Assembly (NCBI GenBank): GCA_964187785.1
Contig: OZ076409.1
Location: forward strand, 63,428,001-63,492,000
Length of the DNA stretch: 64,000 nucleotides
From: Amphiscolops sp. MND2022
Taxonomy: Eukaryota
Direction: 5' to 3'
Shown: one piece after another, positions 8,302 to 54,590 of the stretch
Numbering within the stretch: the first letter of the stretch is position 1
Layout: each line of letters starts with the position of its first letter
Notes under the pieces: generated by a model
Databases searched by the model: none
What the model was told of the DNA's origin: nothing
Seen by the model: only the letters and a program-made list of their open reading frames with translations
Made by a program: the position numbers and the translations under genes

Positions 8302-9134
8302 AACAAGACGAGAACGTCTAAAGTCGGCGCTATATCTAAGGCTCAAAAAGCGCAAAACATTTGTTTTGGAAAAAAATTTGAAATTTTAGAATTGTTTTCT
8401 TTCAAAAAATGTCGCACAGTGCCGCAAAAAATCCAAAGGCGGGACCCTTTAGGCACGTCCGGCTTTGTAGGTTTCCTTGAAAAAGTAAAAAAATGAAAGA
8501 GGGGACCCTTTGCACTAAGTTTGCCTTGGCCGGACTTGGCCTTAGGTGGTTTCAGCACGGCCTTAGGTGGTTTCAGCGATGTTCCTAAAAAGTGGACCAA
8601 TCAGAGTGAATGACGTGGTCTGAAGAAAAAACAAGCCGGGAACGGCCCAAGTCGGCGCCATATCTATAGCTCAAAAATACCAAAAGGACTTCAAAAGGTC
8701 AAAGTATTGGTGAATTGGGGGCCCTTTTATGAAAAAAAAATTTTGAAAAAAGTCTCACAATGCCGAAAAAAACTGAAAGGGTGGACCCTTTGGGATTTTT
8801 CAATATCCATTCTGTAGGAAAATATCAAAAAAATGAAGGGGGACCCTTCGGTGAAAATTTTTGTTTCGAAAAAAGTCTCACAGAGCCGAAAATACTCTAA
8901 GGGAGTAGCCTTTGGCCCCCTTGAGTTTCTTAGATGTAAAAATACTACTTCGTAAGCTAAGTAAGAATTGTATGAAATTGAGAAATTGTAATATTGTAAG
9001 AATTGTAAGAAAAGTGGACCATTCAGAGTGAGATTGTCAGCTGAAAAAAACTACCCACTGTAATAGTCGGGCCACTAAAAAAGGTCACTGCTTTAGTCGG
9101 GCATTTTTCCTTAAAAGGAAAACGCGCCGACTAA
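8302..9134. mobile_element. HINE family A, two nested copies (second head at about 8630), in STARD3 intron 5
   Basis: Heads aacaagacgagaacgtctaaagtcggcgc and aacaagccgggaacggcccaagtcggcgc, internal ggggaccctt repeats, tail tagtcgggcatttttccttaaaaggaaaacgcgccgactaa. Confidence 0.8.
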
Positions 9135-24500: not shown

Positions 24501-27500
24501 TGTAAAACGGTTAAGTAACGCGTCCAAGTTTATTCGGTCCACGTAAATGCCACTCAAGCTGAAAAAGAACATTGATCAACAAACTATACTTGTTCCTCTT
24601 TTTGTTGATACATGATTTTATACATAGGTACATTAGATTAGTTTTGATGCGGAAACATCGTTGCATTCTTTGATATAAAGTATAGTTTGGCATAGAAGAT
24701 ATATCAATATCCAAATTGTTTTACCTCACCAAGTAGAAATAAAACATGGCGGAGTCAGTCATCTAATTTACAATTTTATACTGATTTTTCAGAAACAAAG
24801 AAGATTACACAAGAAGCAACACAAATCGAAGTTCCGAACTTGGAAGCAACAACCGACGGAAGGAAATAATTCACATCGAACCAATGGCTCGAATGATTCC
24901 GGCAATATACAAAACGAATATTTAAAAAGGATAAAGCGGAATTAATCCGGGGAGAAGAAATGACACAAAACGATTGGGCCATAAAAGAAACCAAGATACA
25001 AGGAGATTTCATATGGGGCATCGGTCCAGAAGCAATATATCAAAAGACAAAAGCAAAATATAAAACCGAACCGGACAAAACTGTATTAAAAGATTTGCTC
25101 CGGTTATTCAACGAACATTTGTTACCGAAAAGAAACACATATCACAACCGCGGAGAATTTTTTGGACCGAACAAATTGAACCCGAGATTTCTGGCGGAGA
25201 TCAATAGAAAGTGAAAAAGAATGTAACTTTGAAAATATAACCGCCAAATAATTGCTAAAAAATAACGAAAAATGAGCATTTGGAAAAAAATGAAACATGT
25301 ATACGAAGATTGTTTCGTATCACCAGTGGTAAAAACGGCAAAGAACGACAAATAGGTAAAAATTGCGCTCTAGACTTACGAAAACTAAGCGACAGCTGCA
25401 TTAAAGTCTGTTCACAGGTGCCGAAATGGAAGGATTGCTGAATCAAATTTCAGTGGAATTAACGAAAGACCGAGCGAAAGAACTAATGATATCAAAAATA
25501 GACGTTGATTACACATATGGTCAAAAGAAGTGATCGAAAGAAACAAGCAGACAATGTGTATTTGCCATTAACGACGGGAACATCAGCGGCTACTCCCGAT
25601 TCAAAAAAAAAGATTTTACGGATTAGCCGACGTGCCCTCAATTTTCGAGGAAAAAATTGACCGAACATTTTAATATTGCGCACCCGCATGGCTAGACGAT
25701 ATCGTAGTAGCATAGTAGTAACACGAGGAGATCGAAAACACCAATAAAAGAAACTGTTCGACGTGCTGAGAAAACTAGAAAAAGCCGGATACAAAGCAAG
25801 CGAAATGAAACCAGAATTTTTTTCATCACAAAACAAAATGGCTCGGACATGAAACAGACGCAAACTGGATCAAACCGAATAAATCAAAAGTCAAAGCTAT
25901 AATGGGTTTGAAACACCCGGACAATCAGAAACAACTAAAATCTTTCCTCAGGCCAATACAGTACCTGGTAAAATTTCGACCGAGATTATCGAAACGAACT
26001 GAGAAATTACGAAAATTATTGAAGAAAATCCCAGAATTGAATTGGGAAACAGAAGAAAACAATTTTGAAATGATAAAAAATATGTTATCTGAACAACCTT
26101 GTTTAGCACATTACGCAAAAGATAAAAACAACATCGTAACAAACGATGCAAGCAAAAGCGGTCTCGGAATAACATTAAGGCAGAAACAAACACGGAGAAT
26201 TGAAACCAATAGCTTCGGAACCAGATTTCTGAACGAAAGCGAGAAGAAGTATTTGATTGGAGAGCTCGAATTTTTAGCAGTCGTGTTGGGGTTAGAGAAA
26301 TTCCGTTCTTACCTATACGGAAAAAAGGTGTTTCTGTATAACGATCATCAAGCATTTGAACCTCTAATCAAAAGAAACAGATGTAACAAACAATACGACG
26401 CTAGACTAATCAAATCGCTAGACCGGCTAGCACACGTCGATATTTCAAAACAATATATAACCGGAAGCAATCCAAAATTTAGGGCTACAACTGAAAACAT
26501 GTATGATGAACAATATGTAATAAACATTCTCACAGATCAAGCCGAATTGAATTTGAAACACGGAAGAATCTTCACGAACCAATCACAACACGCATCGAAG
26601 AATAGAAGTACGTACGAACGCAAATAGAATAACCAATCAGAAACGAGTAGAACAATTGAGAAAAACCGATAAGTTAACAAAATGTACGAACAAACGGAAA
26701 CCAGTCCGAACAGCAACTCGATAAAGTTAAAACGTCAAGAAAAGTTACAAAAACGGAATTGTCAAAAACTGCCATTATCGTCCTCCGAAGAAAAAATGGA
26801 CCGTGGAGATTTTCTTTGGGGAGCAACAGCAGAAGTCGTGAAAATCACTCGAAGACGAGAAAAAAGTCCGAAGATGAAAAGATTATTTGAGAGACGATTG
26901 GAGATAGCAAGACCCAGCACGATGAGAAGATGCTAGGATAAGAATGCACGAAGAACCATCTGAGTCCCGTCGCGACTGAACAAAAGAAGCCAGAAGGAAA
27001 GAGCTCAAATCGACGGAGAACTCATACAACGCACAAACAGATTGGGGGAGGCTACCAATCAATCCAAGCAATCGAAGATGAACCGATCCAAGTTCAACTG
27101 GAGAAGTAACTCCCAGGAGAACAAACGAATGACCCAGAACGTGAAGGGGACAATCAAACCATGCGTGGAGATAATTTGCCAATTGTGGAACTAAGGAACT
27201 CCAACACTGAGGGCAAAGAAGCACACTACGTGCAAATTAACCAATTATTCGGAATCACCAAAGGGAACAATGTGACCGAAAAGATCATAAACCGAGCGGA
27301 AATGGATTTCATGCTAGATCTGAAAAGCATGACTGCAAAATCAGCAACGGATGCCGAATTAAACCGGGTAAAATTACCACTGAACAGAGAAGATTGCACC
27401 ATGGCACCGAAACAATACAGGCAACAATTTGAAAAACTGTCAGTGAAATGGGAATTAACACTCCTAAACGACAAAATCATAGTACCAAACGAATGCCGGA

Positions 27501-29316
27501 AAAGATTGTTGGACATGCTACATTTGGGACACGCGGGAACCATCATAATGACAGGAGAAGCCAAATTTTTTGATGGCCAAACATCAACAGAGATATTAAA
27601 GATAAAGTCAAAAACTGCATAACCAGCCTAGCATCTGGTAACAGCTTAAAATAACAAACGAAAGTGAAAAATTAAAAACTCTCTCCCAACCCGGACAAGA
27701 ACTTCAAATCGATTTTACCGGAAAATTACACAACCAAAAACTGAACGGCGAAAACCAATTACACATCGCAGTAGATAGATTTGGTAATTATCCGAACGTT
27801 AAAATTAGCTAAACTTCCGAAATGAAAGTGATAAAATTCCTAACACAGAAGTTTAACCTGTACGGAATACCGGAGAAATATGAATTGGAAACATGCGGTG
27901 CGTTCATTTTAAAAAAATTTAATGAATTCTGCCAGTAGAAGAATTTTGAAACAGAATACGGAACACGGAGAATACACACTGGTACGGGAGCATTAGAATG
28001 CGCAATATAAACCATAAAGAACTTGGTAGTGGCGAAATTAGAAGACAATTTGTGTTTGAATGTGGTAATACAGCGATAAAGGTATTGCGATTTACTATAC
28101 ACACGGGATTAAAATTAACACCGTTCGATGTGCGTCACGGCAGGAACCTGCGAACCGAATCAACTAATTTGGTTGAAGACGGTAAATCCTACCTTTCTGA
28201 TTGGTCCGAACTATCTGTTTCAGCTGAGTAAATGCCAAAAAGCCCCATCTACTGTCGAGAGGTGACGAGGGGGATATAACGAATTATCTCGTGTTGACGA
28301 AAACACGAGCCGAGGAAAAAGCGGTGGATAAACAACCTAAACAAAAAGGTTTGGTAAGTACCCTTTTACATTTGTAGAGAAAAACTTCATTAGAAAATCT
28401 TTAGAACGTAAATTTCAAAAGAAACAGTAAGCGGAAACGAACACACCGTAACCCATCGAGAATGGAAAATTAATTCGTCGAAAACATATTTCGGGAAAAA
28501 TTTTATTTCGGACAGATAAGAAGAAAAAACAGGCACCGCAAATCGGAGACGAAATCACACCGAAGAACCGACATTGTTTCCGAGGTGTCGACGGAAAATA
28601 CATTCAGTGTAATGAAACACTCCGGGACATAGTCAATGAAAACATGAAAAAATTCAAAACCGGATACGAAAATCTGAATCTGAGTCAGAACGTAAAGAAT
28701 GCGAAATCGACGAGGAATGCAGATTTTGAAATGGAGAATACGGACACTTCCGAAAAGAACGGGTATGAACCGATCAGCAAAAACCGCGAAGACGAGTTGA
28801 ACTTACACACGGACGGTGAGATACCTACCGGTGAGAATGAAAATTATTATTTAACAACCGAAAGTACATCTATTAGAAGATCAAACCGAAAACGCACGCA
28901 ACCTAGTAGATACGGGGAGTGCCATAAACCAAAAACTTTTGGGCGTGAAAAATAAAAATGTATGGTTTGTTTCAGGACTAAACCGAACTAACTTAAGAGT
29001 ACTGCCGAAACCATCGGACTTCGAAAGAGAGACAAGCCCATGCCTGTAACCTCCAAATTTTAAAAGGAAGCCCACAAGGGGGAAAGTAATACGATGAAAT
29101 ACCGCGTCCGAATTCATTCGGTTCACCTAAATGCCAATCAAACTGAAAAAGAACATTGATCAACTATAATTGTTCCTCTTTTTGTTGATACATATTTATA
29201 TACACATGTACATTAGATTACTTTTGATACGGAACCTTTGTTGCATTCTTTGTTATAATGTATAGAAGATATATCAGTATCCAAATTCTTTTACCTGACT
29301 AAGTAGAAATAGAACA
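24501..29316 (+). mobile_element. Old, decayed Ty3/Gypsy LTR retrotransposon with both LTRs
   Basis: Diverged LTRs at 24501-24746 and 29085-29316. PBS tggcggag at 24747, PPT aagggggaa. TSD ctttc/cttgc. RT/RNase H ORF 25902-26627 (DASKSGLG, ELEFLAVVLGLEKFRSYLYG) followed by integrase remnants (LHLGHAG). Confidence 0.9.
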
Positions 29317-31631: not shown

Positions 31632-32619
31632 TGGTGGCCATAGAGAGGCACTCACAACCATTCGCGTAGTCTTTACAACAAACAATGAAGAAATGTATAG
31701 CAGAACGTTATCTCGCAAATCTGGCCACAATTATAACCCAAAACTAATTGTAGTGGCTGTTACCTACTCACGCAGTTATCACTGCCACTATTCGAGAATT
31801 CAACTCAAAACCTGGTTAACTTTCATCCACAAGGTCAGCTACGCCAGAGGTCGGATAAAAATCAATAGAAAATCCGGCAGTCTACATTCATTGGTCTTTG
31901 TTCAATCTGCTTCAATTGTTTGACCCACTGCCTCTGTTCAACTACTGGAGGAAACAGAAACTTTCGAAATCCACAACAGTGACCAATTCAGCCAACACTT
32001 ACACTTTTCTCCAACCAATCTCCGCTCCCGACAAGGTTCTAGGTAATCGGACTGAGAAGGGCGAGCGACATCCTTAGTATTGAGGCAGCAGAACGCAAAA
32101 GATAACTGGCGAGCTACTGATGGGAAACCCGTGACGAACAATAGGGAATTCCCCCGATGGCAAATCACTGAAAGTTCTTCCCTGACCTCTGGAAGATATC
32201 GTTACTAACACAACTGTTAGAAACCTATTTACATCTGTATTTTTTAATAGTGTGCTTGGATTTCGAGATAGCAAAAGATTATTAAAAAAAAAACAAAAAA
32301 GCAGCCCATTTGAGTAACTTTTGTAGAATCCTCGTATTTATTTCCTGTTTTTTTGCGACATTCTGCGATTTGAATTGAGCTGTAGTTTTACAAAAAAAGG
32401 CATGTAAAGTTTCATTGAAACAAAATCATCTGACGTTTCGGAATCCGTCTAACAGGAAACCCTGATTTCTTTGATGATTTGACCCAGTCGTTTCAAAAAA
32501 AATCTAAGAAAAATTTTAAAAACAATTTTGAGATTCCTGCGAATCGTTTGAGGTCATAACTGAAGAATAACCCCACATTCTGTTAAGTGATAAATATGAT
32601 CTTCTAACAAAAAACACGC

Positions 32620-33234
32620 ATGGTTTTCATCTTAGCCGCTAGTTCTCTACACCATGCTCTCGAAACCTTAACCATCGAAGAGAAAACTCGATATAACGAC
32701 AAGATTTTCTCTATCCCGGGTCTGAGTCTTAATCCTAAAACAAAAAATCCGAAAAAAGTAGTGCAAAACTTGCTCTCAAAAGATCTCGCCGAAAAAAACG
32801 ACATTGTTATTTGGCATGATGTCCTGAATAACAGCATTTCTCGACACGATAGTAAAAATTTTTGTTCTTTATCAGTACCTGATTTGATTGAAGTCTTAAA
32901 AGGTTTTCATGACAAGCTTTGTGCTCTGGTGTATTGTCATCGCTATCGTACCCCGGACATTTTTGAACAATTGAAAGTGTTAGAAGCCGATCTGCACGTC
33001 AAAGTGTTCAACATTGTCAGAGACTTTATTTCACCGAAAAAACAAAAGGATGCCGAGCTCCTGAAAAAATTTAAAGCACTGCACCAGAGCCCCGAGCTTG
33101 AACTGAAAAATCTCGACTTCTTGCTCCGTAAAGAGAACGATCTTTCTGTGATTACCGAGAAAAGCCGCCCAAAGAGGCCTAGCAAGCGTGCCCAAAACGC
33201 TATTAAAAGAGCATCTGTGAATCCTTCACGGTAA
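32620..33234 (+). CDS. ORF0 of the BEL element: 204-aa protein with SGNH/GDSL-like motif pattern and basic C-terminal tail
   Basis: Intact ORF between PBS and gag. Block-like motifs VFILAASS, SIPGLS, DIVIWHDVLNN and ALHQS. Homologous relic at 61180-61757. The fold call is inference. Confidence 0.7.
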   Translation: MVFILAASSLHHALETLTIEEKTRYNDKIFSIPGLSLNPKTKNPKKVVQNLLSKDLAEKNDIVIWHDVLNNSISRHDSKNFCSLSVPDLIEVLKGFHDKLCALVYCHRYRTPDIFEQLKVLEADLHVKVFNIVRDFISPKKQKDAELLKKFKALHQSPELELKNLDFLLRKENDLSVITEKSRPKRPSKRAQNAIKRASVNPSR

Positions 33235-33869
33235 CACCCCGTTTTCTCTTGACTGTGGAGACAGTGTCCAGACTTCACTGTCTGGTTGAAGTTTCCACAG
33301 CTCGTTGCTTGTTTCAGAGTTGTGTCCAGACTTAGTTGTCTGGTTGATACTCTGTAAACTTATTCAATTTTTTAACGGGGTCCAATTTTTATTGATTGAT
33401 CAAAATTGCGAAAGCTGACTCAAACTTTCTTTAATTACTAGGAAAAGGTTTCTAGTCTTATTCCGGGCCCACATTTAATTTTTCCGATAGTTACCGTTAA
33501 CAATTAATTCTTTTTAGAGTATTCGCTTTTTTTATTAATTAATGATTTTATAATTCAGTTTTCATCTCTCACTGTTAAAATAGTGTCCGGACTTAATTGT
33601 CCAGTTGAAATCCTGCCAGTCCATCTCCTTTAACAGCAACTCGCTTTGAGATAGCGTTTCTAGCGCAACTTCGGGTTTTGTCTTTCGTCTCCGTATTCTG
33701 TGACTACTTTTACACCCCAAAAAGTCAATCCTTTTCCAACTTTCCACGATCAGCCGCGTCTAAGCTTCGTTGCTTGGTTGACGCTGACGAAGGGAAACCT
33801 GAGAACTTTCCTGATCATCACCCAAAGACCACTACCTTGTTGAGTCTATAACGCAATCACTCGAGTAGA

Positions 33870-36716
33870 ATGGCTAACACCATGCAAGAAAAAGTCAAAA
33901 AACTTTTCGAAAGTCGTGCCAAAGCCGAGATCGAGTTACAGAGATTGCATGAGAAAGTCCAAGATGCTGTGGAGAACAAAGATAGACGTGTCCGCATTGA
34001 AAGACTTGTTACTTCCTGTGACGAAGCAATGACTAAATTGTTTGCCAAACATGAACAACTTTTCGAACTCGCAGGCAAAACAGAAGACCCGTCACTTGTT
34101 ACACAAGATTTGGAAACTTGGTTGAAAGAAGTGACCACTCGAAACGATGAGATTTTAAAGAAGGCTCGTGACTACATCGATCAATGTCCACTCGTCGATG
34201 CAGCATCTCAATCGTCAACGACTGTCACCAAAAGCAAGCAACCAAGCAAAACGTCAACTTCAAGGACATCCAGACAATCGAGAACATCCAGTCAACGACA
34301 AAGGGACTTGCTAATTGCCAAACAACGTAAGGTGGAGATAGAAAGGCAAAACGAAGCCGCCCTTAGATTTGCAAAGCAACAGCAGGAACTGGAACTCGAA
34401 CGTCTACAGGAAGAACAGGAACTACTTAGACTGAGAACCGACCGACTTAGGAAAGAACAAGCACTTGAAGTTGAACAGTTAGAAGAAGAAAACCGAAAGA
34501 AACTAGCTGAAGCAACACTCACCGAGCTTGAACTGACAGACGACTTGTCGGACTCTCAATCAGAGCTTCTGGACACGGTGACGCAATTAGCTACTTCGAC
34601 TAAAGCTGACGATACGCTCCGAGTAAGCGAGTGGGTTAACAATTCACCCATTACCACTGCAAGTCACCCCGCAAACACTGCAGTTTTGGACACAAACACT
34701 GTTACCGTTACTACTGCAGCGCCACAATCGGTCGATATGGGGGCTCCCACAAAAACCCCATTACCTAGCAATCCAGTAGTGATTTCTGTAACTCCACCGC
34801 CCGCGCCAACGGCTAACGACAAGCCATCAGTTACGGGACTAGGTTCATTAGTTTACATACCAACTATGGAACCTGTCCAAAATCCACAACTAACTACGAC
34901 TCCTCCGAGAACTTCTCCTTTGATTACCGCTACGGTACAGCCAGCGCCCACAGTCACAGTTCCCGCAAGCCATCTTCTTCCAAACTTATCGGCCTGGACG
35001 TTCCCGACAGGACCAAGCAACCCGCATGTTGGCGCAACTCCTGTAACCACGAATCAGAATGTAATTCCGACAGTTCTTCCGACTACCAGTGTTGCCACAA
35101 CAACCTCGCCTATTATTCCAGTCACCGCTGGAGGAACCGTATACTACATTAACCCGACGTCTATGGCAACAGTGTCCGCACCGAACAGCGCACCAATTCC
35201 GAGTACATTCCCGACCATTCCTTCAGCAACGCAATTTGCACCTCCTACGTTCATCTCTGCACCGCAACCAGCGACAAGCAGTTTCACTGTTCAAGATCTT
35301 GCGCAACTGTTAGCTTCGTCAAAGAGGGACCACCTCCCGGAATGGAAACTGGCACAGTACAGTGGAGACCCACTTCAATGGCACGAGTGGTATGGTCAGT
35401 TCAAGAGTGCCATCGATTCAGCCCCGCTGACCGATGACGTAAAACTGACTTATCTAAAGACACTGGTGTCAGGTAAGGCGAAGACTACTATCGCAGAGTT
35501 TGCCTACAGCGGTACCATGTACAAAGATGCGCTGAAAACGTTGGAACGAAAGTTTGGGCAACCTCAAACCGTGGTTAGTGCCTATCTTGACAAACTTGCC
35601 AACTATCCGCCAGTCAAAATGCACAATAGCGATAGCATCATCAGCTATTCTGCCACTGTTTCCTCACTTTTCGGCGTTTTCCGATCCTTGAATTACCTCC
35701 AGGATTTGTCGAGCGCTTCGCTCATGAACCAAGCAGTTCAAAAACTTCCACCGAATTTGAAGGAAGCCTGGTCTATGAACACTGTCAAACGGAACCTGGA
35801 CCGGCCGACGTTGATTCACTTCAATGACTGGCTGAAGGAAAAAACAGAAGCGCACGAACGCATGAAAGCCACCTCCAGTAAACCAAGGACTGAAGAAGCT
35901 TCTGCCAACACTGTCACTAAGACAAAAACGGGAACCAAGGTTTTTGCGGCGACCACGAGCAATCAAGTGAAAACTGTCCCCAAGATTAGAAGTGAGAAAC
36001 AGTGCATAGCCTGTAAAGACAGTCACCCACTGTGGCGATGCTCAGTATTCCGCCAAAAAACTCCAACTGAAAGAACCAAGCTGGCTGCCGAGAGTAAACT
36101 ATGCTTTTCATGTTTGAACGACGGACATTCATTCCGACAATGCCCGCAACCAAGAAAGTGCACCAAGGAAGGCTGTAGTAGCTCGCATAACACTTTACTG
36201 CACGGCGCCGATAGAATTTTCCCTCAGAAAAGTCTCGGCGATACAGAAACTACCCAAAGTAGTAAAACAAAGGTCAATCAGAAACAAACCGGCAGTGAAA
36301 GTTCCGGCCTGCCTTCCGTAATTGATTACAAAAGCTTGTTGCAAATAGCAGAAGTTCAGTTGGACTCATTGTCAAGCTCCGTGAAAGTCCTCGCTTTATG
36401 CGACTCAGCTTGTAGTCATTCTTGGATCTCAAGGAGTTTAGCTCACAAACTACGAGTCAAAGGCTCAGCAACCAAGTTAACCGTACACGGGATAAATTCC
36501 CAGCAAGTGGTCGACACAGAAACAGTTGAGCTTAAGTTGACGCCCTTTCATTCGGGTGGCTCTTGTTCAACTTTTCCTGTCACGCCTTATGTCCGAGATG
36601 ATTTGAAAGTGGGAAACGACGTCATCGACATTGACAATCTGAAAAAGATTTACCCACATTTAGAACCGATCCCCCTCAGCAAGTACAGCTATTCAAAGAT
36701 GTTGTACAGATATTGA
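33870..36716 (+). CDS. BEL/Pao gag + aspartic protease (frameshifts into pol near 36700)
   Basis: Coiled coil, long Thr/Pro linker, BEL gag core (YSGDPLQWHEWYGQF...KLTYLKTLVSG), three zinc knuckles (CIACKDSHPLWRC, CFSCLNDGHSFRQC, CTKEGCSSSHNTLLH), protease ALCDSACSHSWI. Confidence 0.93.
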   Translation: MANTMQEKVKKLFESRAKAEIELQRLHEKVQDAVENKDRRVRIERLVTSCDEAMTKLFAKHEQLFELAGKTEDPSLVTQDLETWLKEVTTRNDEILKKARDYIDQCPLVDAASQSSTTVTKSKQPSKTSTSRTSRQSRTSSQRQRDLLIAKQRKVEIERQNEAALRFAKQQQELELERLQEEQELLRLRTDRLRKEQALEVEQLEEENRKKLAEATLTELELTDDLSDSQSELLDTVTQLATSTKADDTLRVSEWVNNSPITTASHPANTAVLDTNTVTVTTAAPQSVDMGAPTKTPLPSNPVVISVTPPPAPTANDKPSVTGLGSLVYIPTMEPVQNPQLTTTPPRTSPLITATVQPAPTVTVPASHLLPNLSAWTFPTGPSNPHVGATPVTTNQNVIPTVLPTTSVATTTSPIIPVTAGGTVYYINPTSMATVSAPNSAPIPSTFPTIPSATQFAPPTFISAPQPATSSFTVQDLAQLLASSKRDHLPEWKLAQYSGDPLQWHEWYGQFKSAIDSAPLTDDVKLTYLKTLVSGKAKTTIAEFAYSGTMYKDALKTLERKFGQPQTVVSAYLDKLANYPPVKMHNSDSIISYSATVSSLFGVFRSLNYLQDLSSASLMNQAVQKLPPNLKEAWSMNTVKRNLDRPTLIHFNDWLKEKTEAHERMKATSSKPRTEEASANTVTKTKTGTKVFAATTSNQVKTVPKIRSEKQCIACKDSHPLWRCSVFRQKTPTERTKLAAESKLCFSCLNDGHSFRQCPQPRKCTKEGCSSSHNTLLHGADRIFPQKSLGDTETTQSSKTKVNQKQTGSESSGLPSVIDYKSLLQIAEVQLDSLSSSVKVLALCDSACSHSWISRSLAHKLRVKGSATKLTVHGINSQQVVDTETVELKLTPFHSGGSCSTFPVTPYVRDDLKVGNDVIDIDNLKKIYPHLEPIPLSKYSYSKMLYRY

Positions 36717-36717
36717 G

Positions 36718-39700
36718 ATGATCCTTGGTCAGGATGTCTTCCACTGTATCCGCCCATTGGAGTACTTCGAAGCCGACCGTCCGAATACTCCGATAGCCGT
36801 CCGTTTGCCGTTAGGTTGGGTACTGAGTGGTCCACTTCCTTCCACTACGGGTCTTTTCTCGACTTGTTTCAAAGCTGTCAGTAGCTCAGAGAATGATTCG
36901 ATTCTTGCCGATCAACTTCGCAGCTGGTATGACATGGAGTCATTCGGCGCCTACAAACAAGCTGATTCACGCTCCGCAGCCGATGCGCAAGCGATGAAAA
37001 TTCTTGAAGAGACAACATTCAACGATGGATGCCGTTACCAAGTTGGTATGTTGTGGGCCGATGACGAAAGTACGTTACCGAACAACTACGTCTCGGCTCT
37101 CGTTCAACTCAAGTCTTTAGAACGCCGCCTAGGGAAAGATCCTCAACTGAAAGAAAGTTACAGCAAAACAATCAAAAAGGATTTTGAAAAAGGGTATATT
37201 GTTCAAGTCGATAAATCCGAATGCTTTCGAACTGATAACCGTCGTGAATGGTATTTACCACATCACCCCGTGATACATCCTCACAAACCCGGTAAAGTGA
37301 GAAGAGTTCTGAATGGCGCCGCAAAGTTTCACAGTTATTCTCTGAACAATGCTCTTTTAACTGGTCCAGATCTGCTGCAAAGTTTGATCCATATCGTTTT
37401 TAGATTCCGTCAATACCCCAACGCCGTATCCGCCGACATCAAAGGAATGTTCCTACAAGTAGGGGTTATTCTGAAAGACCAGCCGTCTCTTCGCTTTCTG
37501 TGGCGGGAAGACCCATCAACTGAAGTTGCTGTTTTTCAAAACGTAAGGCACATCTTCGGTTCGAAAGACTCACCGACATGCGCAAATTACGCCCTAAAAA
37601 GGACCGCTACAGACAATGTTGAAGATTTTCCGACTGTCGCCTAGAGCGTGCAAACAAACTTCTACATGGACGACTATCTCGAATCTAGTCCGACAGCTGA
37701 AGAAGCCATTCAAAAAGCTAAAGATTTGACAAAATTGCTTTCAATTGGTGGATTTAAGCTAATAAAGTTCATGTCTAACGACTCCAACATCCTGCAACAA
37801 ATCGAACTGAACTCTGACAGCCAAACCAACGATGGTAAACTGTTACTATCAACAGAGGAATCATCACATGTACTTGGCCTCAAATGGAACCATGCCTCAG
37901 ACACACTTGTTGTTAGCCGAGGCACAACTCCTGATACAAACCGAACTGTTACTCAAAGAATTGTCCTCAGCCTCGTCTCCGCAGTTTACGACCCTATTGG
38001 CCTCGTAGCTCCGTACACAGTGAAAGCCCGACTTCTACTCAAAGACATATGGAGACTGAGTGGCCAGAAATGGGATGACATTCTCCCAGATGACATTATA
38101 ACCAAGTTTCTTGACTGGAGTTCTGAATTGGGTACACTTAGCGAACTCAGGACTCCGAGAAGTTATTTCCAACAAAAGGTGGAACGTCTGGAGTTACATA
38201 TGTTTGGGGACAGTTCACAAGATGTTTTCAGTGCAGTAGCTTTCCTCAGAGGCAAAGTCATCAGCGGCGATGACAGTTCTACTGAAATAGCCTTTGTTTT
38301 CGGCAAAGCACGAGTCGCACCAATGAAAGCTTTGACCATTCCTAAACTCAAACTGCAGGCCGCACTGCTTTCCGCTAGATTGAGAAATGAAGTGCAGCGT
38401 GCTTCAACTCTGCAAATCGAGAAGACTTTCATGTGGACCGACAGTACTACGGTGCTTCAGTGGTTACACTCCCTTGAAAATTAGCCTGTATTTGTTGCAA
38501 ACCGCGTTGCGGAAATACTCGAACTAACGACTGCCGACGAATGGTACCATGTTCAATCCGCTGACAACCCTGCGGATGCTGGAACTAGAGGTTTGTCCGC
38601 CAAAGGTCTTTTGCAGAGTAGTTGGTTAAGCGGTCCCAATTTCTTGAAAACAAATGAATGGCCTTTCAAGCCATCCGAAGGCTTCCGACCGAAACTGAAA
38701 CAAACTAAATTGGATCCTACCGATCAACCCAGTACTGAGTCGTATACAATGCTGTCTGAAACCCAAGTTGCAACAGCGAAAACTTTCGAGTGGCAGAAGT
38801 ATGGCTCGTACGAGAAACTCCTGCGCATTGCAGCCTATGTTTTACGGCTTCTGTCGAGAAATAGGGACTACAGGACAAACTCTTGCGTCATCACTGATCC
38901 TACTGAACTTGGAAATTCTGAACAACGTCTTCTCTACCTGACCCAAGCAGAATCATTCCATGCCGAAAAAAGTAACCTGCTGAAGTCAACCCCGCTCAGT
39001 AAATCTTCGAAAATTGTCCGATTCTCCCCCTTTATTGGACCAAACGGTCTTTTACGAGCGTCTGGCCGAACAAGACTACTCGAAACTGCCACATTTGATG
39101 TCAAACACCCCATTCTATTGGATGCCCGTCATCCACTAGTCAGACTTTTCCTAGAACATTTACACTCCCAACATTGCCATCAGGGCGTTGACTATCTGAG
39201 AGCGTTGGTACAGCAGCGATTTGCTGTAGTCAAGCTGAGAGCTGTCCTGAGAACCATTGTTTCGAGATGCCTAACATGCCGTAAACGAAATGCTGAAACA
39301 CTGACTCCAATAATGTCCGACCTACCTCGCGAAAAGCTGGCGTTTAAGGAACCTCCTTTCTCAAACACTGGGATTGATTACTTCGGACCGTTTTTCGTAT
39401 CAGTGAAAAGGTCGACTGAAAAACGGTGGGGCTTCCTTTTTAATTGTCTGACGACTCGCGCCGTTCACTTTGAAGTTGTTCCCAGTATGGATACCAGCAA
39501 TTGCGTGATGGGGATTGAAAGATTTTGTGCCCGCCGTGGAATCCCCATCAGTAATCTGGTCTGACAACGGGACAAACTTCGTTGCCAGCGAGAAAGAGCT
39601 TTTATCCAACATCAAAATTTGGAATCAACAAGTTCTCAGCGAGTCACTTGTTAAGAAAGGGATCAAGTGGAAGTTTAACCCTCCAAGTGCCCCCCCACCA

Positions 39701-40245
39701 CGGAGGTGTTTGGGAACGTCTAATTCGTAGCTTTTTTCTACGCCGTTTTAGGGAACCGCCGTTTGACAGACGAAATCTTGACGACGACGTTTTGCCTGGT
39801 GGAACAATGTCTCAACGCCCGCCCAATCACACCCGTTAGTCCTGAAGCTACTGACATCGACACCCTCACAGCAAATCACTCTCTTCTTGGAACACCTAGT
39901 TCAACATTGCCGTCACACTTCCGCCCCGAAATAGACCATCGAAAGCGATATGTTCGAGCTCAAACGTATTGGGACGCAATTTGGAATCGTTGGCTCAAGG
40001 AGTACGTTCCACACCTCAACTGTCGCTCGAAATGGTTCCAATCGTCAGACCGACATCTGAAAACCGGAGATCTTGTCTGGCTAGTTGAGCCTACCGCACC
40101 AAGAGGACACTATCCACTTGGTCGCGTGGTGAAGTTAAACTACGGCACCGATGCCATCGCCCGTTCAGCTGAAGTCAAGACCTCAACCGGAAACCTTGTT
40201 CGCCCAGTTGTCAAGCTCGCTCCCGTTCTCCCTATTTCCGAGTAA
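36718..40245 (+). pseudogene. BEL/Pao pol (RT, RNase H, integrase) with in-frame stops and frameshifts
   Basis: WYLPHHPV, LNNALLTGPDL, FYMDD, YDPIG, LHMFGDSS, KARVAP, TGIDYFGP and WSDNGTNF. TAG at 37642 and 38482. Frameshifts near 39545 and 39690-39740. Confidence 0.93.
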
Positions 40246-48000: not shown

Positions 48001-49280
48001 TCTGTGATTTTTTGAAGACGTCAACGCAACTTTTTTGTAAATTAGAGTCATTCACAAGTTTGGCATATTCATAGTGTTTCTAAAACACCATCTCTAAACG
48101 GCTAATTCCCAATGCTAGCGAACTATTGTCCTGAAGGGACAAAATGAAATTAAAGTGGCTGAAAGTTTAAGTATTTCGTTTTGTTTCGAAGCCAATAGTA
48201 CATCAGGATAGAACTTATCAAAAATAAGCAAAATTGACCTGATTCAATCAACACATGATAGGCGTTTGATTAAAACATGAAGGAAATCGCGTGGAAATTG
48301 AGGCAAACGGTATCAAATGTCACCGATAGGCAGTTAAAATTAACTACTTTCGAACAAGTACCACATGTTCGGCGTATTAGCCGCCGGCGTATAAGACCCT
48401 CGCGATATAAGTCCTTAAGATCCTTGAGTTCGAGCAGCAAACCCCAATTTCCCAAATTTCAGCAAAGTTTCCCAAACTTTCCCAATGTTTCAACAGTGAG
48501 TGAATTATATGAAAATCGTTTGGCAGTAGAAGTCAGAATTAAAGTTTCATCTTCCGAATCCTCAACAATATAATCAACCGCAGCATCATCGTAAGGGTGA
48601 ACCGGAAATCCTGTTCTGGTTGATTTGGACGTTATCTCAGCTATTCAACATTCACATGTAACTTAATTTCTAGCTTGCTTTTTAGACAGGTCATCCTGTA
48701 ATCTCCCTCCCCCAATCTAGCCCTTACTCAAAAATCGCAACGGGATTTGTACGCCGAACATTACGGCATTTCAGTATAATACAAATGAACCAAAGCTTTC
48801 GATAGTCAAAGGCATATTAATTTTCGACCATCCCCTTTCTCGGAAATAAAATGCTAAAAACGGCTCAACTTAAGGTCTCTTGAAACATGCTTAAAATCAT
48901 TTGTTGTTGAAAGCCATAACTGAAACCGATTTGCTCCGGAAAATTTTCGGCATTTTGATCTCGAAAATGAACTAATCTAATCCTTAGGAAGAAACCCTCG
49001 GTTGTAAAAGCATCGGCCATTTTGTGGCCATTTATAATTCTTATTGAAAATAGGAATTTATTCAATTTTTGGTTTTAAGGATATTTATTTGCAAGGCGAA
49101 ACCTAACTTCTGTGCTTTGGAAAAAACTTCAGTGAAACAATTTCAATTTTATATTCAATTTTATTTTATCAAGGTGAGGTCTTTTGAAGCCAGCCTGCTT
49201 CAAACTTTAAGGGCTCGGGGAAGAAACCATTGCGAGTAAGCCAAATGGCCATGTGGCAACCAGTCAAAAGCCAGGGCGCT

Positions 49281-49476
49281 TCAACCCCTCCATCGACCCC
49301 ATCGACCTCTACCCCTGCCCCATCTTCTGCCGCCCCATCTTCGGCCACCCCAGCCCCAAGGTCTTCCTCCCCAGTAGGGTCTGTATCCTCCGTAATATGC
49401 AGGTCTATAGTACGAAGAGTAGCCGTACGGGTGCACGTATGGGTAAGGGTACGGGTTGTAGCTCCCTATGTAATAC
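49281..49476 (-). CDS. Secreted Tyr/Gly/Arg/Trp-rich peptide, exon 2
   Basis: Acceptor cttgtcctgtttcag| (phase 2). YYIGSYNPYPYPYVHPYGYSSYYRPAYYGGYRPYWGGRPWGWGGRRWGGRRWGRGRGRWGRWRG*. AATAAA at 49165-49160. Confidence 0.88.
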
Positions 49477-50207
49477 CTGAAACAGGACAAGTTTCAAAAA
49501 CAAGACAGTTTCATGTTCATGTTTTTCAAGGTCGTTTGACGTTAAAATCAACGCAAATAGTTGTTCAAATACTTTGCTTGGGTTGAAGATTGCAATCATT
49601 AAGCAATTACGCAATTTGATAGTTTTTAAGCAATGTATTGAATCGTTTTCCCTGGGATTGTGCCGTCTCGATGCGCAGAGTTCAGATGTTTGGTAGATTT
49701 AGTTTTGAATTCTGACCTCAGAATTTGTGGCATCCAAGCTGGCCTTAATAGTTGTACTAATTTTGAAATTTGTTTACATAGATGGTACGAATTGCATTGC
49801 TGCGACATGCATTGACGATTAACCCAAAAAATAAGTTCATATTCATAGCTTCTAAGACGTCGCGAAGACGTCCGGTCTGTTTAGGATCGAAATTTCATTC
49901 AATTTGTCAGAAATCCTGAAATAGAAAATAGACAAAACTAATTTTGAAAGTGATTTTTAGATGTGACAACTGAAGTGGTGACCCATAGAGAAAACTGGAA
50001 GAGCAACGATGCGATATGATTCAATGTTTCCTATAAAAACAAACTTAAAAATTCGAACCATTTGAAAAATTTAAATGTCGTAAAAACTAATCATAAACTG
50101 TCAAGTCAAATTTGGTAAAAGTTAGCTGAATTGGATTAACTTTATATCTTTTTTAACTCACCTTGCTTAGTCATAAAAACTCAAGGTATTAACTGGAGCA
50201 TATTAAC

Positions 50208-50284
50208 CTGTAACATGACGATATCTGCAGAAAGGCGATCAATAATATGACCAGACTCAACTTCGTTGACTTGAAAGAGCCCAT
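50208..50284 (-). CDS. Secreted Tyr/Gly/Arg/Trp-rich peptide, exon 1 (signal peptide)
   Basis: aaagATGG start, MGSFKSTKLSLVILLIAFLQISSCY, donor CAG|GTTAAT (phase 2) matching exon 2. Confidence 0.88.
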
Positions 50285-50414
50285 CTTTGACTAATGATTT
50301 TTACTGACTGAGAAGATCACAAACACACATTGATTGGATTTGTCTTGGCTGGTACACCAGGTTGATGTTTGGTGCCTTGAAACGGCCAACTTATTCAAAA
50401 TCGATGTTGCTACG

Positions 50415-52335
50415 CGGTGAACAAAAAACGGAGCGCACAAATAGTTGCGATCTCAAAGTCGTATTATTTGTAAACAAGGTACTGTAAATCTTCAATTTTC
50501 TGTCAATCGTTTTGATTCAAGCTTTTATTACGTAATCACATCTTTAACTAAGGATAGTTCGATCCATCAGAAATAGGTGAACCGAAAAAAACGGAACGCA
50601 CAAATTTTTGCATCTTCGAAATCGTACTATTTATAAACAAGGCACTGCGAATCGTTCAAATTTTCTGCCAATCATTTCGATTGATGATCATATTACGTAA
50701 TCACATCTGCAACTAAACAGTTCGAACCATCAAAAACAGTCTAGACGTCTTGATCAGTCTTTTCGTACTCCTTTTAACATGTGAAAGTTTTTTGCGTCTG
50801 AGGAAAAATGGTAATTCCAATGATTGACAGCAGCGTTCAAAGTTGTTTTCAAACGTTTGTTGACAAGCATTTAAAACTTTGAGAGGTCAAAAACTTTTGT
50901 GTGTTCCGTTTTTTGGTTCACCTAGTAGACATCCCAACCAGTAACTTCGTACTCACTTTTAATGTTTGATAGCTTTTTGTTCGCTTCTAAGAAAAGATGC
51001 TGATTTGAATGATTGACAGCAGCGCAAAAAGTTGTTTCCAAACGTTTGTTGACAAATATTTGAAACTTCGAGAGCTCGAAAAGTTTCATGCGTTCCGTCT
51101 TTTTTGTTCAATTAGTAGATGACCAAAAAAGGGTTGACGCATTGATCAAATGTGCGCGAACAAACCATCGAAATGGATCTCAAAACGAAGTGAAGCAAGA
51201 AACACGGAACGCGCAAAATGTTCACGGTTCAAAATCGTAATATTTGTAAACAAGACACTGAAAATCTTTCCTTTTCTGTTAACCGTCCTCCTGTTACGTA
51301 ATGTGAATCTTTAACAAAGAATGATCCGAACCTTCCGAAAAAGTCTAGACCAATCATTTCGTTCACACTTTTAATGTGTGAAAGCTTCTTGGCTTCGAGG
51401 AAAAGTCGTCAATTTGAATAACTGGCAAGTTGAATTGGAATGTTCAAAGTTGTTTTGAAATGTTTGATGACAAATATTTGACGTCTTAAGAGTACAAATT
51501 TTTTATGCGTTTCGTTTTTTTTTGTTCACCCACCAAATTTTTTGAGATCTGAAAGTTCCAAATATTTTTCAACAAATGTTTCAATACAACACTGAACATT
51601 GCAGTTCAGCTTGTCAGTCATCTGATTTACGTCTCTTCGAAGCAAATAAACTTCCACACATCAAAAGTGTGAACGAAATGACTAGTAAAGACCTCTGGAC
51701 TTTTCTGAGTGAGTGTTCGGATCTTTTTTAGTCGGCGCTTTTCTTTAGAAAAGAGTCGACTATAGTCATGGCTTTTCGTCAGTGTTTTTTAAGACCACCT
51801 GAACTGACCAAAATAGTTCTACAAAAGTTCTACAAAATGTTATTGCACCAAATTGCACCATTTGGCCTAGCGAACTGAACCAGAAAGGTTTTTCCTGTTT
51901 TTCCGCGTAACATACCATACCGGGCGAAACCAAAGGGTCCCCCTTTCAGTTTTTTTTTGGCATTGTGAGACTTTTTTTCCAAAAAAAAATTTTCCCCAAA
52001 GGGTCTCCCCTTCACTGTTTTTGCTGTTTTGCGACAGAATGGATGTTGGAAAATCCCTTTCAGTTTTTTCGGCATTGTGAGATTTTTTTTCCAAAAAAAT
52101 TTTTCATGAAAGGGTCCCCAACTCACCAATACTTTGACATATTGAAGTCCTTTTTAGTATTTTTGAGCCTTATATATGGCGCCGACTTGGGCCGTTCCCG
52201 GCTTGTTTTGTTGAATATTGGATTACGTGATGGGAGATTGATTGACAGAGAAAGTTTTTCAATGTCTTGTTTACAAATATTACGATTTTGAAGAGTGAAT
52301 TTTTGTACGTTCCGTTTTTTGTGGTTCGCCTAGTA
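50415..52335. repeat. Cluster of related, diverged MITE-like units in both orientations
   Basis: Terminal motif ggtgaacc(a)nacggaacgcacaaa at about 50416, 50576 and 51190, and its reverse complement at about 50895, 51085, 51500 and 52300. Confidence 0.7.
51724..52207. mobile_element. HINE family A, complete copy
   Basis: ttttttAGTCGGCGCtt...gtcgacta at one end and GCGCCGACTtgg-GCCGttccCGGC-ttgtttt at the other, inserted in T-runs. Confidence 0.85.
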
Positions 52336-54102
52336 ATGCGTGTACCGTTTTTGTTTCGGGTAACCTTGGTTCACAAATATCAACTGATTCACGAATATCA
52401 CTTTTTTCAAGCAATCGAGTGAGCCAACTGTAAATTTTTTGACCACTCGAATTACAAAGTATTTTCAAGTTTATTCAAAACAGTTGAAATTCGCTGTCAA
52501 ACTTGCCAATAAACTGGTTCGCCAAAGTAATTGTCGATTTTGGTAAGGGACGTGTCGTTCAAAGGCAAAACATTCATCAAATCAAAGATCTTTCGAAATG
52601 TCTTTGGAATAAAATATCAAAGTTAATAGTTAGTTGATCAATAATTTCTGCTTACAATCCAATTACTGTTCGAGAAGTTATGAGAACCATGTTTTCGACC
52701 AATTTTAGCAAAAAATTTTCACGATTCATTGTTGTAGCCCTGAGTTTCCTCTAGAAGCTTTCAAGCTTTCCGATTTGATTTCCAATTGATTTTTTTATCA
52801 CAAATGAAGACAAACTACAGGAAAAGTTTAATCACAAATGAAACTTTGTTTCACCTAACTTTAATTCATGGGGCAAGATTTTCTGCTGGAGTTTTCAGGT
52901 GTGAAGTTTTGGTAGAAACGTCAATTGGAAACCTTCTAGAGGATACCCTAAATGATTATATCCTGAACTCTGCCACATTCGAAATCATTATAAATTTTGA
53001 TTTTGATTGTGAAGATTTTTTTCGGAAAATAAGTGAATTACAATACAAATCAGATCTTTCCTCATTGATACATCAAAAATTGACAGTAAAAGTTGATTTT
53101 TTGTTGAATGTTTAATGATTGGTCATCCTGAGAAGCCTTGAAACTTCGTGTTTGAAATATTTATTACGTACTACCATATTCACTTTGGGTGGCTGACAGT
53201 AAAACGACAAACGTTCTGTCGCCCCTTTAAAAGATTCAGAGACTAATAAAGTTTCCCCGGTGCACGCCTAGTACTGGGAGACCCGCAAAACGCGGCACAC
53301 TTCAAACGTTCTCAAATTTGACGATACAAACATTTTTCAACAAGAAGTCGAAATTTCTGCAAGTTTCATTTTGTCACTTGTGAATCCCTTAGAACAAAAT
53401 CAATTTCGAAGACAACATATAATTAATTTTCATGTTTTTTTGTCTTAAACTTTTGTCTTTTCGGCCGTACAAATTCATTTACTTCTATCTTTTGAACGGC
53501 AGTAAGAACTTACCACAACATACTCACGAAAACTTGAAAAAAATTGTAACCTTGTTTTTTGGAGGCAACACACTATAAAAGCAAAAGGGGGAAGTTTCGG
53601 AGACCAAAAAGGGCTACCAAAACTTTACCGATGTATAATGCCAAGATATGCCAGTTACGTCCATCAGAAACAAAGAAAGAACCTGTGTCAAGTAGCGCGT
53701 AAATAAGGTACAAGTGAACAGTAGCTCCAGTGGGCAACCCCACCCGAGGTGCAGCGACACCAACGGAGCAAATTGAGGAAGACATCGTCAAGAACTTAAC
53801 CGCGTTTTCCAAAATGTCATGATATCTCACGCGAAAAAGAATCAAGAAGAACCCGGGTTGACACCCCAAACGTAGATCAAATATTTCGGGGTCCGTCAAA
53901 TCTAGGCCGAGAAGTAACAGATATCGTAATCTGACACAGATATGGCCCCATACGAAGAAATTTAGACAAGACGTCCGCTGAGCAACGGGATATTTCCCGC
54001 TTCAACTGAGCCATAGATATTTTAGTTACTTGACTATTTTAGTTACTATTAACTAAAATAGTCAAGTGCATTGAGATCGTGGAGATTTGGCAGAATTTGG
54101 AA

Positions 54103-54590
54103 AACAAGACGAGAACGTCTAAAGTCGGCGCCATATCTAAGGCTCAAAAAGCGTAAAACACTTTTTTTGGAAAAAAATTGAAATTTTTGAAAATTTTTCT
54201 CTCAAAAGAAGTTGCATAGTGCCGAAAAATGTAAAAGGGGGGACCCTTCTGGATTTATTAACAAACATTCCGTTGCAAAATATCAAAAAACTCAAAGGGG
54301 GGACTCTTTGGGGACATTAAAAAATTTTCGAAAAAAAGTCGCACAGTTCCGAAAAAAATCCAAAAGGGGACCCTTTGGGCACGTCCGGTTTTGTATGTTT
54401 CCTTGAAAAAGTAAAAAATGAAAGGGGGGACCCTTTGGAGTAAAGTTTGCCTTGGGCGGACTTGGCCTCAGGTGCTCTGGGCAGAATTGTGAAAAGTGGA
54501 CCGATCAGTGTGAGGATTGTAGTCTGAAGAAAAAAAAAGGTCACTGCTATAGTCGGGCATTTTTCCTTAAAAGGAAAACGCGCCGACTAA
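54103..54590. mobile_element. HINE family A, complete copy
   Basis: aacaagacgagaacgtctaaagtcggcgcc ... tagtcgggcatttttccttaaaaggaaaacgcgccgactaa. Confidence 0.85.

What the first reader, a model, noticed from the sequence alone, without database searches (positions are those of the whole stretch)
49281..50284. Two-exon gene for a 90-aa secreted cationic Tyr/Gly then Arg/Trp/Gly peptide
Seen: a signal-peptide exon missed by the ORF track splices in phase to exon 2. The predicted 66-aa mature peptide (after SSC) has 15 Tyr, 13 Arg, 7 Trp, no Asp/Glu or Cys, and ends in Gly. A poly(A) signal follows. Known: Arg/Trp-rich peptides are often membrane-active, nematode NLP-29/caenacin-type antimicrobial peptides are Gly/Tyr-rich, and a C-terminal Gly is an amidation signal. 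Inference: a candidate novel antimicrobial peptide. Alternatives are a Tyr/DOPA-crosslinked adhesive, mucus or cocoon protein, or a neuropeptide precursor cut at GRR.
Basis: partly seen in the sequence, partly recalled or inferred. Interest (0 to 1): 0.72.

Follow-up and report, generated by a model that had tools for sequence, protein, structure and literature searches.

The report
Orphan cationic secreted peptide, acoel worm
A small two-part gene in what is probably an acoel marine worm appears to encode a secreted, strongly positive peptide with no known relatives that could be a germ-killing or a glue-like mucus component, but neither its expression nor its activity has been shown.

Summary
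The gene model checks out. Exon 1 (50284-50208) joins in phase across a 731-nt GT-AG intron to exon 2 (49476-49281), giving 90 aa; the residue counts are as stated. Codon tests reject the two other long open frames over exon 2. The donor CAG|GTTAAT nearly matches a donor of the neighbouring STARD3 gene, placed using a close relative's protein. The mature 66-mer is a strict diblock: all 15 Tyr first, then all 7 Trp with 10 Arg; net charge +13; no amphipathic periodicity; no confident fold. No homologue was found, but those searches are weak here. A retrotransposon in the window points to a convolutid acoel, a group reported to lack canonical immune signalling (PMC12849515). Best reading: a secreted mucosal host-defence peptide (0.40); close rival: a coacervating adhesive, mucus or cocoon protein like mussel Mfp-3 (0.33). 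Transcription is untested, and the window's only perfect consensus donor lies 46 nt downstream and would truncate the product.

The parts
50208..50284 (-). Exon 1 coding part (77 nt): ATG with A at -3 and G at +4, 24-residue predicted signal peptide (basic n-region, hydrophobic core, small residues at -3/-1), first mature Tyr, first two bases of an Arg codon
   Evidence: an in-frame TAG lies just before the two codons preceding the ATG
50202..50207 (-). Proposed 5' splice donor CAG|GTTAAT (phase 2)
   Evidence: 8 of 9 bases equal to the STARD3 intron-3 donor CAG|GTTAAA placed by alignment to P0002
49477..50207 (-). Intron, 731 nt, GC 0.34
50156..50161 (-). Competing consensus donor AAG|GTGAGT. 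From the main ATG it gives a 31-aa truncated product; from an ATG at 50174 with the acceptor before 49465 it gives a 65-aa signal-less form in the same Tyr frame
49477..49500 (-). Pyrimidine-rich 3' splice acceptor ending TTTCAG
49374..49476 (-). Exon 2, Tyr/Pro/Gly/Ser block (to mature residue 36): all Tyr, no Trp, 3 Arg in mature residues 1-36
49284..49373 (-). Exon 2, Arg/Trp/Gly block (mature residues 37-66): 10 Arg, 7 Trp, 12 Gly, no Tyr; two GRR sites; a 15-bp tandem repeat at 49317-49352; ends in Gly
49281..49283 (-). Stop codon TGA
49057..49165 (-). Three AATAAA hexamers (49165, 49089, 49062) at the start of AT-rich DNA; 3' UTR 49280-49170 is GC 0.52, the next 110 nt GC 0.25
50308..50330 (-). 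Acceptor-like pyrimidine tract ending CTCAG, 23 nt before the ATG: possible 5' UTR intron end or spliced-leader trans-splice site (inferred)
   Evidence: 30.2% of S. roscoffensis genes are trans-spliced (PMC9911081)
50404..51600 (.). Degenerate 160-190-bp repeat array, direct and inverted copies, directly upstream of the gene

Best explanation
An intact two-exon, lineage-restricted gene of a probable convolutid acoel encodes a 90-aa precursor: signal peptide, then a 66-aa disordered peptide with no pro-piece. Shown from sequence: gene anatomy, reading frame, diblock composition, charge +13, no Cys. Inferred: it is spliced at AG|GTTAAT and made in epidermal or digestive gland cells; the signal is cut near Ser-Ser-Cys; the final Gly may be turned into an amide. 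In mucus, the Arg/Trp/Gly block binds anionic microbial envelopes by Arg and sinks Trp into the membrane interface as an extended, non-helical chain. The Tyr/Pro block self-associates or holds the peptide in the mucus by aromatic and cation-pi contacts. The most likely job is host defence or control of the mucus microbiota.
For: Gene reality. Small, secreted, Cys-free and strongly cationic; no confident fold (pLDDT 54.8, pTM 0.11, single-sequence model). Tested antimicrobial families share the composition: C. elegans NLP/CNC are described as glycine- and tyrosine-rich (PMC2453101); myticalin A is Pro/Arg/Tyr-rich, Cys-free and predicted amidated (PMC12294457). Arg-rich C-terminal motifs raise killing (PMC12371492 abstract). 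Setting: the acoel mucus layer is suggested to harbour a specific bacterial community (PMC4183113); acoel secretory cells are proposed to act in defence and adhesion (PMC8097308); acoels lack canonical immune signalling, and about half of the genes responding to Vibrio are uncharacterised (PMC12849515). That Arg/Trp peptides such as indolicidin act as extended chains is recalled, not from a call.
Against: No homology to any known antimicrobial family: Pfam 0 hits, PDB 0, Atlas best scores 0.82 and 0.77, and 2 weak phmmer hits, one an unrelated fish phosphatase repeat. No paralogue within 64 kb, whereas nlp-29 genes are clustered. No acidic pro-piece, unlike myticalins. Hydrophobic moment of the basic block is no higher than shuffles (P 0.34-0.80). 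The final Gly is expected often by chance. A 42% aromatic Tyr block is what DOPA adhesives and matrix proteins look like. The strong downstream donor may win. The acoel assignment rests on a retrotransposon.
Confidence: 0.4

Rival explanations
1. Structural secretion: a coacervating adhesive, mucus, cocoon or extrusome protein working like mussel Mfp-3. Stored in gland granules; on release seawater salt screens Arg-Arg repulsion, so cation-pi contacts between the Arg block and Tyr/Trp condense it, possibly with acidic polysaccharides; Tyr may be oxidised to DOPA and cross-linked.
For: Strict diblock: every Tyr precedes every Trp (Mann-Whitney P 1.2e-5; Tyr versus Arg P 3.3e-4); 33% aromatic, 20% Arg. 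Mfp-3 is about 6 kDa, cationic, DOPA- and Trp-bearing, with asymmetric Trp distribution; seawater salt triggers coacervation of cationic recombinant Mfp-1 (PMC12721214 passages). W2R2 and W3R3 self-coacervate (PMC11323023 abstract). KRMPs are a basic block plus a Gly/Tyr block (PMC4498902). Acoels make adhesive mucus, jelly cocoons, rhabdoids and sagittocysts.
Against: No homology to Mfp-3 or KRMP. No tyrosinase or other Pfam domain in the 148 ORFs of 55 aa or more at 40.3-64 kb. Tyrosinases are reported for Xenoturbella; I found no statement for acoels among the 15 of 45 papers listed. Acoels only rarely bear sclerotised parts (PMC3789126). No Lys.
Confidence: 0.33
2. The locus does not yield this peptide: the consensus donor AAG|GTGAGT dominates and gives a 31-aa stub, or the gene is silent or decaying, or exon 2 is joined to another first exon (including a signal-less form).
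For: The only AG|GTRAGT in 128 kb of strand lies 46 nt after the proposed donor. 58 of 486 tested joins are open to the same stop, several without a signal peptide. No orthologue was found although a close relative's STARD3 (P0002) is in the collection.
Against: None of the 4 homology-placed STARD3 donors is GTRAGT (GCAATT, GGATGC, GTTAAA, GTTAGT), so this genome does not seem to need the consensus. Both exons are intact. Exon-2 codon use is like the host gene's (GC3 0.55 versus 0.56; same-codon test P 0.23). The homology searches are insensitive here: STARD3 orthologues of the two annotated acoels in the collection did not appear either.
Confidence: 0.15
3. Neuropeptide or hormone precursor cut at the two GRR sites (and monobasic Arg) to give amidated Trp-ending peptides.
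For: Signal peptide, two Gly-Arg-Arg sites and a terminal Gly.
Against: The two RR sites are 5 residues apart, so the middle product would be a dipeptide amide; no KR sites, no acidic spacers, no repeated clean peptide. Motifs WGGRR, GGRRWG and YYRP are absent from the supplement of PMC6188537; RWGR occurs only in one partial nemertodermatid candidate and PYWG only in receptors.
Confidence: 0.05
4. Other gland product: a seminal or copulatory secretion, or a deterrent against predators.
For: Orphan, small and secreted; acoel copulatory organs have glandular parts and sagittocytes lie near them (PMC3789126); damaged Convolutriloba release a toxin (PMC12849515).
Against: No feature points specifically to this; no Cys scaffold or known toxin fold.
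Confidence: 0.07

Closest known systems
C. elegans NLP-29 cluster and caenacin (CNC) antimicrobial peptides (PMC2453101)
   Same: Short, Gly- and Tyr-rich peptides; epidermal defence is the proposed role here. That they are Cys-free, secreted and lack a pro-piece is recalled.
   Different: No detectable homology; no gene cluster within 64 kb; separate Arg/Trp block of 30 residues; much Pro; infection induction untested.
Mytilus myticalins, especially subfamily A (PMC12294457)
   Same: Linear, Cys-free, cationic, Arg/Tyr/Pro/Trp-biased secreted peptides of a marine mucosal surface, with a possible amidation Gly.
   Different: No anionic C-terminal extension after a dibasic site; no PRX repeats; phase-2 rather than phase-1 coding intron; 66 aa rather than 26-37; Gly is the commonest residue.
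Mussel foot protein 3 (Mfp-3f/3s) (PMC12721214)
   Same: Small (8 versus about 6 kDa), cationic, Tyr- and Trp-bearing secreted protein with uneven Trp placement.
   Different: No homology; DOPA untested; strict Tyr-then-Trp split; only one Asn (Mfp-3 being Asn-rich is recalled); no byssus in this animal.
Pearl-oyster KRMP shell matrix proteins (PMC4498902)
   Same: About 100-aa precursor with signal peptide, one basic block and one Gly/Tyr block.
   Different: Basic residue is Arg with no Lys; block order is reversed; no shell.
P0004 (unnamed ENA protein, 217 aa, 4 Tyr-rich repeats between KR and acidic X-Ala/X-Pro spacers)
   Same: Its repeat unit aligns with the Tyr block (60% identity over about 31 aa, E 2.7e-4; score 100 versus shuffle mean 47, maximum 84 in 5000).
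   Different: Multi-copy precursor with acidic spacers and no Trp; no match to the basic block (score 23). It was picked as one of two hits among 1.8 billion proteins, so convergence is likely; its function is unknown.

Membership tests
NLP-29/caenacin antimicrobial peptides | Gly- and Tyr-rich small peptide | tested here: met
   16 Gly and 15 Tyr of 66; family description in PMC2453101
NLP-29/caenacin antimicrobial peptides | Sequence homology to the nematode clade | tested here: inconclusive
   No such hit; low complexity weakens the searches and no direct pairwise test was run
NLP-29/caenacin antimicrobial peptides | Tandem cluster of paralogues | tested here: not met
   tblastn of exon 2 against the 64-kb window: next best E 0.17; the rest of the genome was not available
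NLP-29/caenacin antimicrobial peptides | Epidermal expression induced by infection or wounding; antimicrobial activity | not testable with these tools
   No reads or assay possible
Myticalins | Tripartite precursor with anionic C-terminal extension after a dibasic site | tested here: not met
   No Asp or Glu after residue 24; sequence after RR is cationic; definition in PMC12294457
Myticalins | Phase-1 intron in the coding sequence | tested here: not met
   Intron is phase 2
Myticalins | Cys-free cationic mature peptide rich in Arg and aromatic residues | tested here: met
Mfp-3 | Small cationic protein rich in Tyr/DOPA with Trp | tested here: met
   8.2 kDa, 15 Tyr, 7 Trp, +13; PMC12721214
Mfp-3 | Homology to Mfp-3 | tested here: not met
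   No Pfam family at E 0.01; no such hit
Mfp-3 | Tyr converted to DOPA; present at an adhesive interface | not testable with these tools
   Needs native peptide and localisation
KRMP | Lys-rich basic region followed by Gly/Tyr region | tested here: not met
   No Lys in the mature peptide; order reversed
Xenacoelomorph neuropeptide precursors | Repeated peptides between basic cleavage sites; match to catalogued precursors | tested here: not met
   Two RR sites 5 residues apart; five motifs searched in the one supplement file of PMC6188537 gave no matching acoel precursor
Amphipathic helical antimicrobial peptides | Helical hydrophobic moment | tested here: not met
   Best 11-mer moment 0.69 versus shuffle mean 0.70; no confident structure

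The most novel reading that the evidence does not exclude
A secreted, self-condensing defence peptide of a new design: a Tyr-sticker block fused to an Arg/Gly/Trp block (a miniature, exported version of the Tyr-rich plus RGG layout of FET proteins; that likeness is recalled) that seawater salt turns into a coacervate in the worm's mucus, where it traps or kills microbes. It would be a candidate direct immune effector in a group that has lost canonical immune signalling. The second donor and acceptor might also yield a signal-less intracellular form from the same exon.
Probability: 0.1. Interest if true: 0.8.

Novelty: new variant of a known kind. Interest (0 to 1): 0.5.

Why it matters
Acoel immunity was undescribed until 2026, and that study found the usual signalling pathways missing and many responding genes uncharacterised (PMC12849515; the word 'antimicrobial' does not occur in its main text). 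None of the papers listed (20 of 164; 15 of 22) describes an acoel antimicrobial peptide by title or abstract start; subscription journals are mostly outside this library. A 66-residue Cys-free peptide can be synthesised, so the question becomes directly testable. If it is instead a glue or mucus protein, it would be a very short natural diblock for underwater coacervation. Either way it is one more small low-complexity secreted orphan, a common kind in invertebrates, which caps the surprise.

Tried and rejected
Whole-genome paralogue search: no genome is held. Exon-2 peptide searches: 0 of 21 candidates at E 10 among proteins of 35-112 aa; not in the collection by exact sequence; 2 hits among 1.84 billion representatives, of which P0003 is a salmon phosphatase repeat and P0004 a probable convergent; 595 pattern matches in metagenome contigs, none confirmed; PDB 0; Atlas below 0.9 in both calls. 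A family search by the signal peptide, often the conserved part, could not be done because the exon is under the 40-residue minimum; this is left open. Rfam: 0 matches in the window. Pfam on 148 ORFs at 40.3-64 kb: 0; 96 ORFs at 17.6-33.8 kb were listed but not scanned as a set (three of them were). Rejected readings: antisense mucin-like Ser/Thr/Pro frame (all 5 Thr ACC, 11 of 13 Val GTA; 278 same-codon pairs versus 133 expected, 0 of 5000); second minus frame, acidic 98 aa; amphipathic helix; micro-exon use of the strong donor (the short candidates hit a stop or shift frame; read by eye). The single-sequence AlphaFold model was too poor for a fold search, so none was run. Earlier scan notes: nothing relevant. 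The FASTA supplements of PMC12849515 could not be read, and its table of 29 responding genes gives no sequences, so I cannot say whether a relative is among them.

Full report
The observation. On the minus strand an ATG at 50284 opens a 77-nt exon that ends at 50208 before GTTAAT; a 731-nt intron ends in TTTCAG at 49477; exon 2 runs to a TGA at 49283-49281. The joined frame is 90 codons. After residue 24 there are 66 residues with 16 Gly, 15 Tyr, 13 Arg, 7 Trp and 7 Pro, no acidic residue, no Cys and no Lys; calculated pI 10.5 and mass 8.2 kDa. Three AATAAA hexamers follow at 49165, 49089 and 49062.

Is exon 2 coding, and in which frame? Its Y/W/R/G/P content is 56 of 64, against at most 28 of 64 anywhere else in the window. 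Two other frames are also open over it. The antisense frame reads like a Ser/Thr/Pro mucin, but it would need all 5 Thr as ACC, 6 of 7 Ala as GCC and 11 of 13 Val as GTA; its same-codon count is 278 against 133 expected from the host STARD3 codon use (0 of 5000), whereas the proposed frame is ordinary (236 against 216, P 0.23). A second minus frame gives an acidic protein; if that were real the Tyr frame would be open and as simple as observed in only 0.00025 of 20,000 resamplings, while the reverse costs nothing. GC3 is 0.55, as in STARD3 (0.56). The Tyr frame is therefore the coding one.

Is exon 1 its partner? A rule-based scan, written after seeing the candidate and so only indicative, found signal-peptide-like ATG exons at three starts in the window; two end at AG|GT and only this one is in phase 2. 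An in-frame stop sits just upstream of the ATG. To calibrate donors I aligned the neighbouring STARD3 gene (MENTAL and START domains) to P0002, a close relative's protein (80-98% identical per exon). Its four best-scoring donors are CAG|GCAATT, CAG|GGATGC, CAG|GTTAAA and TAC|GTTAGT; the candidate's CAG|GTTAAT differs from the third by one base. Against this, the only AG|GTRAGT in the whole window lies 46 nt downstream and would give a 31-aa stub, and open joins are easy to find (58 of 486). I put the spliced 90-aa product at about 0.8-0.85. No RNA run was listed, which says nothing either way.

The animal. A Bel/Pao retrotransposon at about 33.8-40.2 kb has 912 relatives; of the best 120 listed, 3 carry names: two Symsagittifera roscoffensis (56%) and one Convolutriloba macropyga (55%); unnamed hits reach 95%. 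Window GC is 0.38, against 36.7% and 39.1% for two convolutid genomes rich in LTR elements (PMC9911081 passages). A convolutid acoel other than those two is likely, but this is indirect.

Relatives. None found, and no paralogue within the window. These blanks are weak: the peptide is short and of low complexity, intron-split small genes are poorly called, and the word-based search did not even return STARD3 from the two annotated acoels. The one suggestive hit, P0004, is a multi-copy precursor whose Tyr-rich unit matches the first half beyond shuffles, but it was selected from 1.8 billion proteins and does not match the basic half.

Anatomy of the peptide. All 15 Tyr lie in mature residues 1-36 and all 7 Trp in 37-66 (P 1.2e-5); the first block is 42% aromatic with net +3, the second has 10 Arg, 7 Trp and 12 Gly. 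The hydrophobic moment of the basic block is no higher than that of shuffles at helix, polyproline or strand angles, and a single-sequence AlphaFold model has pLDDT 54.8 and pTM 0.11. It is best read as a disordered diblock. The last Gly could signal amidation, but 12 of the last 30 residues are Gly. Two GRR sites lie 5 residues apart; a cut there would leave a long Tyr peptide and a 13-residue Arg/Trp tail.

How it probably works. Shown: gene, frame, composition. Inferred: secretion from gland cells; the Arg/Trp block binds anionic surfaces; the Tyr block sticks to itself or to Arg by aromatic and cation-pi contacts. What it binds decides the function. If microbial envelopes, it is a mucosal defence peptide (0.40): Gly/Tyr-rich nematode NLP/CNC peptides (PMC2453101 passages) and Pro/Arg/Tyr-rich myticalins (PMC12294457 passages) are the working models, Arg-rich tails raise killing (PMC12371492 abstract), and acoel mucus is suggested to carry its own bacterial community (PMC4183113 passages). 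If itself, mucus polysaccharide or the substrate, it is an adhesive, mucus or cocoon component (0.33): Mfp-3 and salt-triggered coacervation of Mfp-1 (PMC12721214 passages), W/R peptide self-coacervation (PMC11323023 abstract) and two-block KRMPs (PMC4498902 passages) are the models, and acoel secretory cells are proposed to serve both defence and adhesion (PMC8097308 passages; gland types in PMC3789126 passages). The two roles can coexist. A neuropeptide is unlikely (0.05), a reproductive or deterrent secretion is possible (0.07), and a wrong or unproductive model gets 0.15.

Membership. It fails defining tests for myticalins (no anionic extension, intron phase), KRMP (no Lys, order reversed), helical peptides and catalogued xenacoelomorph neuropeptide precursors, and shows no homology to NLP/CNC or Mfp-3. 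It may work like them; it cannot be filed in any of them.

Novelty and weight. Small secreted low-complexity orphans are common in invertebrates, so the kind is known; the strict Tyr then Arg/Trp layout and the probable acoel host are the new part. Acoels are reported to lack canonical immune signalling and to respond to Vibrio largely with uncharacterised genes (PMC12849515: abstract, passages, sections 13 and 17, supplement file 3; its FASTA supplements could not be read). My searches listed no paper describing an acoel antimicrobial peptide, within a library that lacks most subscription journals. Whether acoels have tyrosinases for DOPA was not settled (listing; PMC10951248 passages on Xenoturbella). 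Verdict: a real-looking gene, function open between two testable readings; new variant of a known kind; interest 0.5.

Noticed in passing
window 16794 (donor) to 13346 (acceptor), minus strand, STARD3 intron 2: The best junction with an AG acceptor against P0002 needs a non-canonical CAG|GGATGC donor (score 188, tied with an AT donor; best GT/GC solution 170 with an insertion); intron 1 uses GC. AG|GGA fits the pattern of GG/GA donors reported as common only in the copepod Eurytemora (PMC5714493, part 1 of 2 read). Searches listed no report of this for acoels. One intron only, protein-level evidence; worth a genome-wide check.
   Followed up: partly
window 17587-4923, minus strand: Five-exon STARD3/MLN64-like gene (MENTAL plus START), very diverged; only one relative found among 1541 candidates.
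   Followed up: yes
window 33852-40245, plus strand: Near-complete Bel/Pao retrotransposon (DUF1759, protease, Peptidase_A17, integrase zinc finger) broken into several ORFs; a second Pao-like integrase remnant near 561-908.
   Followed up: partly
window 24897-28955, plus strand: Decayed Ty3/Gypsy-type element with RNase H domain hits at 25809-26624.
   Followed up: no
window 49280-49170, minus strand: The 3' UTR is unusually GC-rich (0.52 versus 0.38), and the peptide frame stays open for 26 more codons after the TGA; could be chance, a former coding extension or read-through.
   Followed up: no
window 50174, 50162 and 49465, minus strand: An internal ATG, the consensus donor and a second acceptor give a 65-aa signal-less form in the same frame; such joins are common by chance.
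   Followed up: partly
window 50404-52335; related copies at 2089-2163, 8301-8915, 21804-22255, 54101-54410: Two interspersed repeat families flank the 5' side of the gene: a 160-190-bp array with inverted copies, and a family dispersed across the window. Could be MITE- or satellite-like and may carry the promoter.
   Followed up: partly
window 32608-33234, plus strand: 208-aa ORF just before the Pao element with no Pfam hit; identity unknown.
   Followed up: no
P0004: Unnamed 217-aa secreted precursor with four Tyr-rich units between KR sites and Glu-Ala/Glu-Pro spacers, a layout that recalls apidaecin-type precursors (recalled); single-member cluster, no name.
   Followed up: partly
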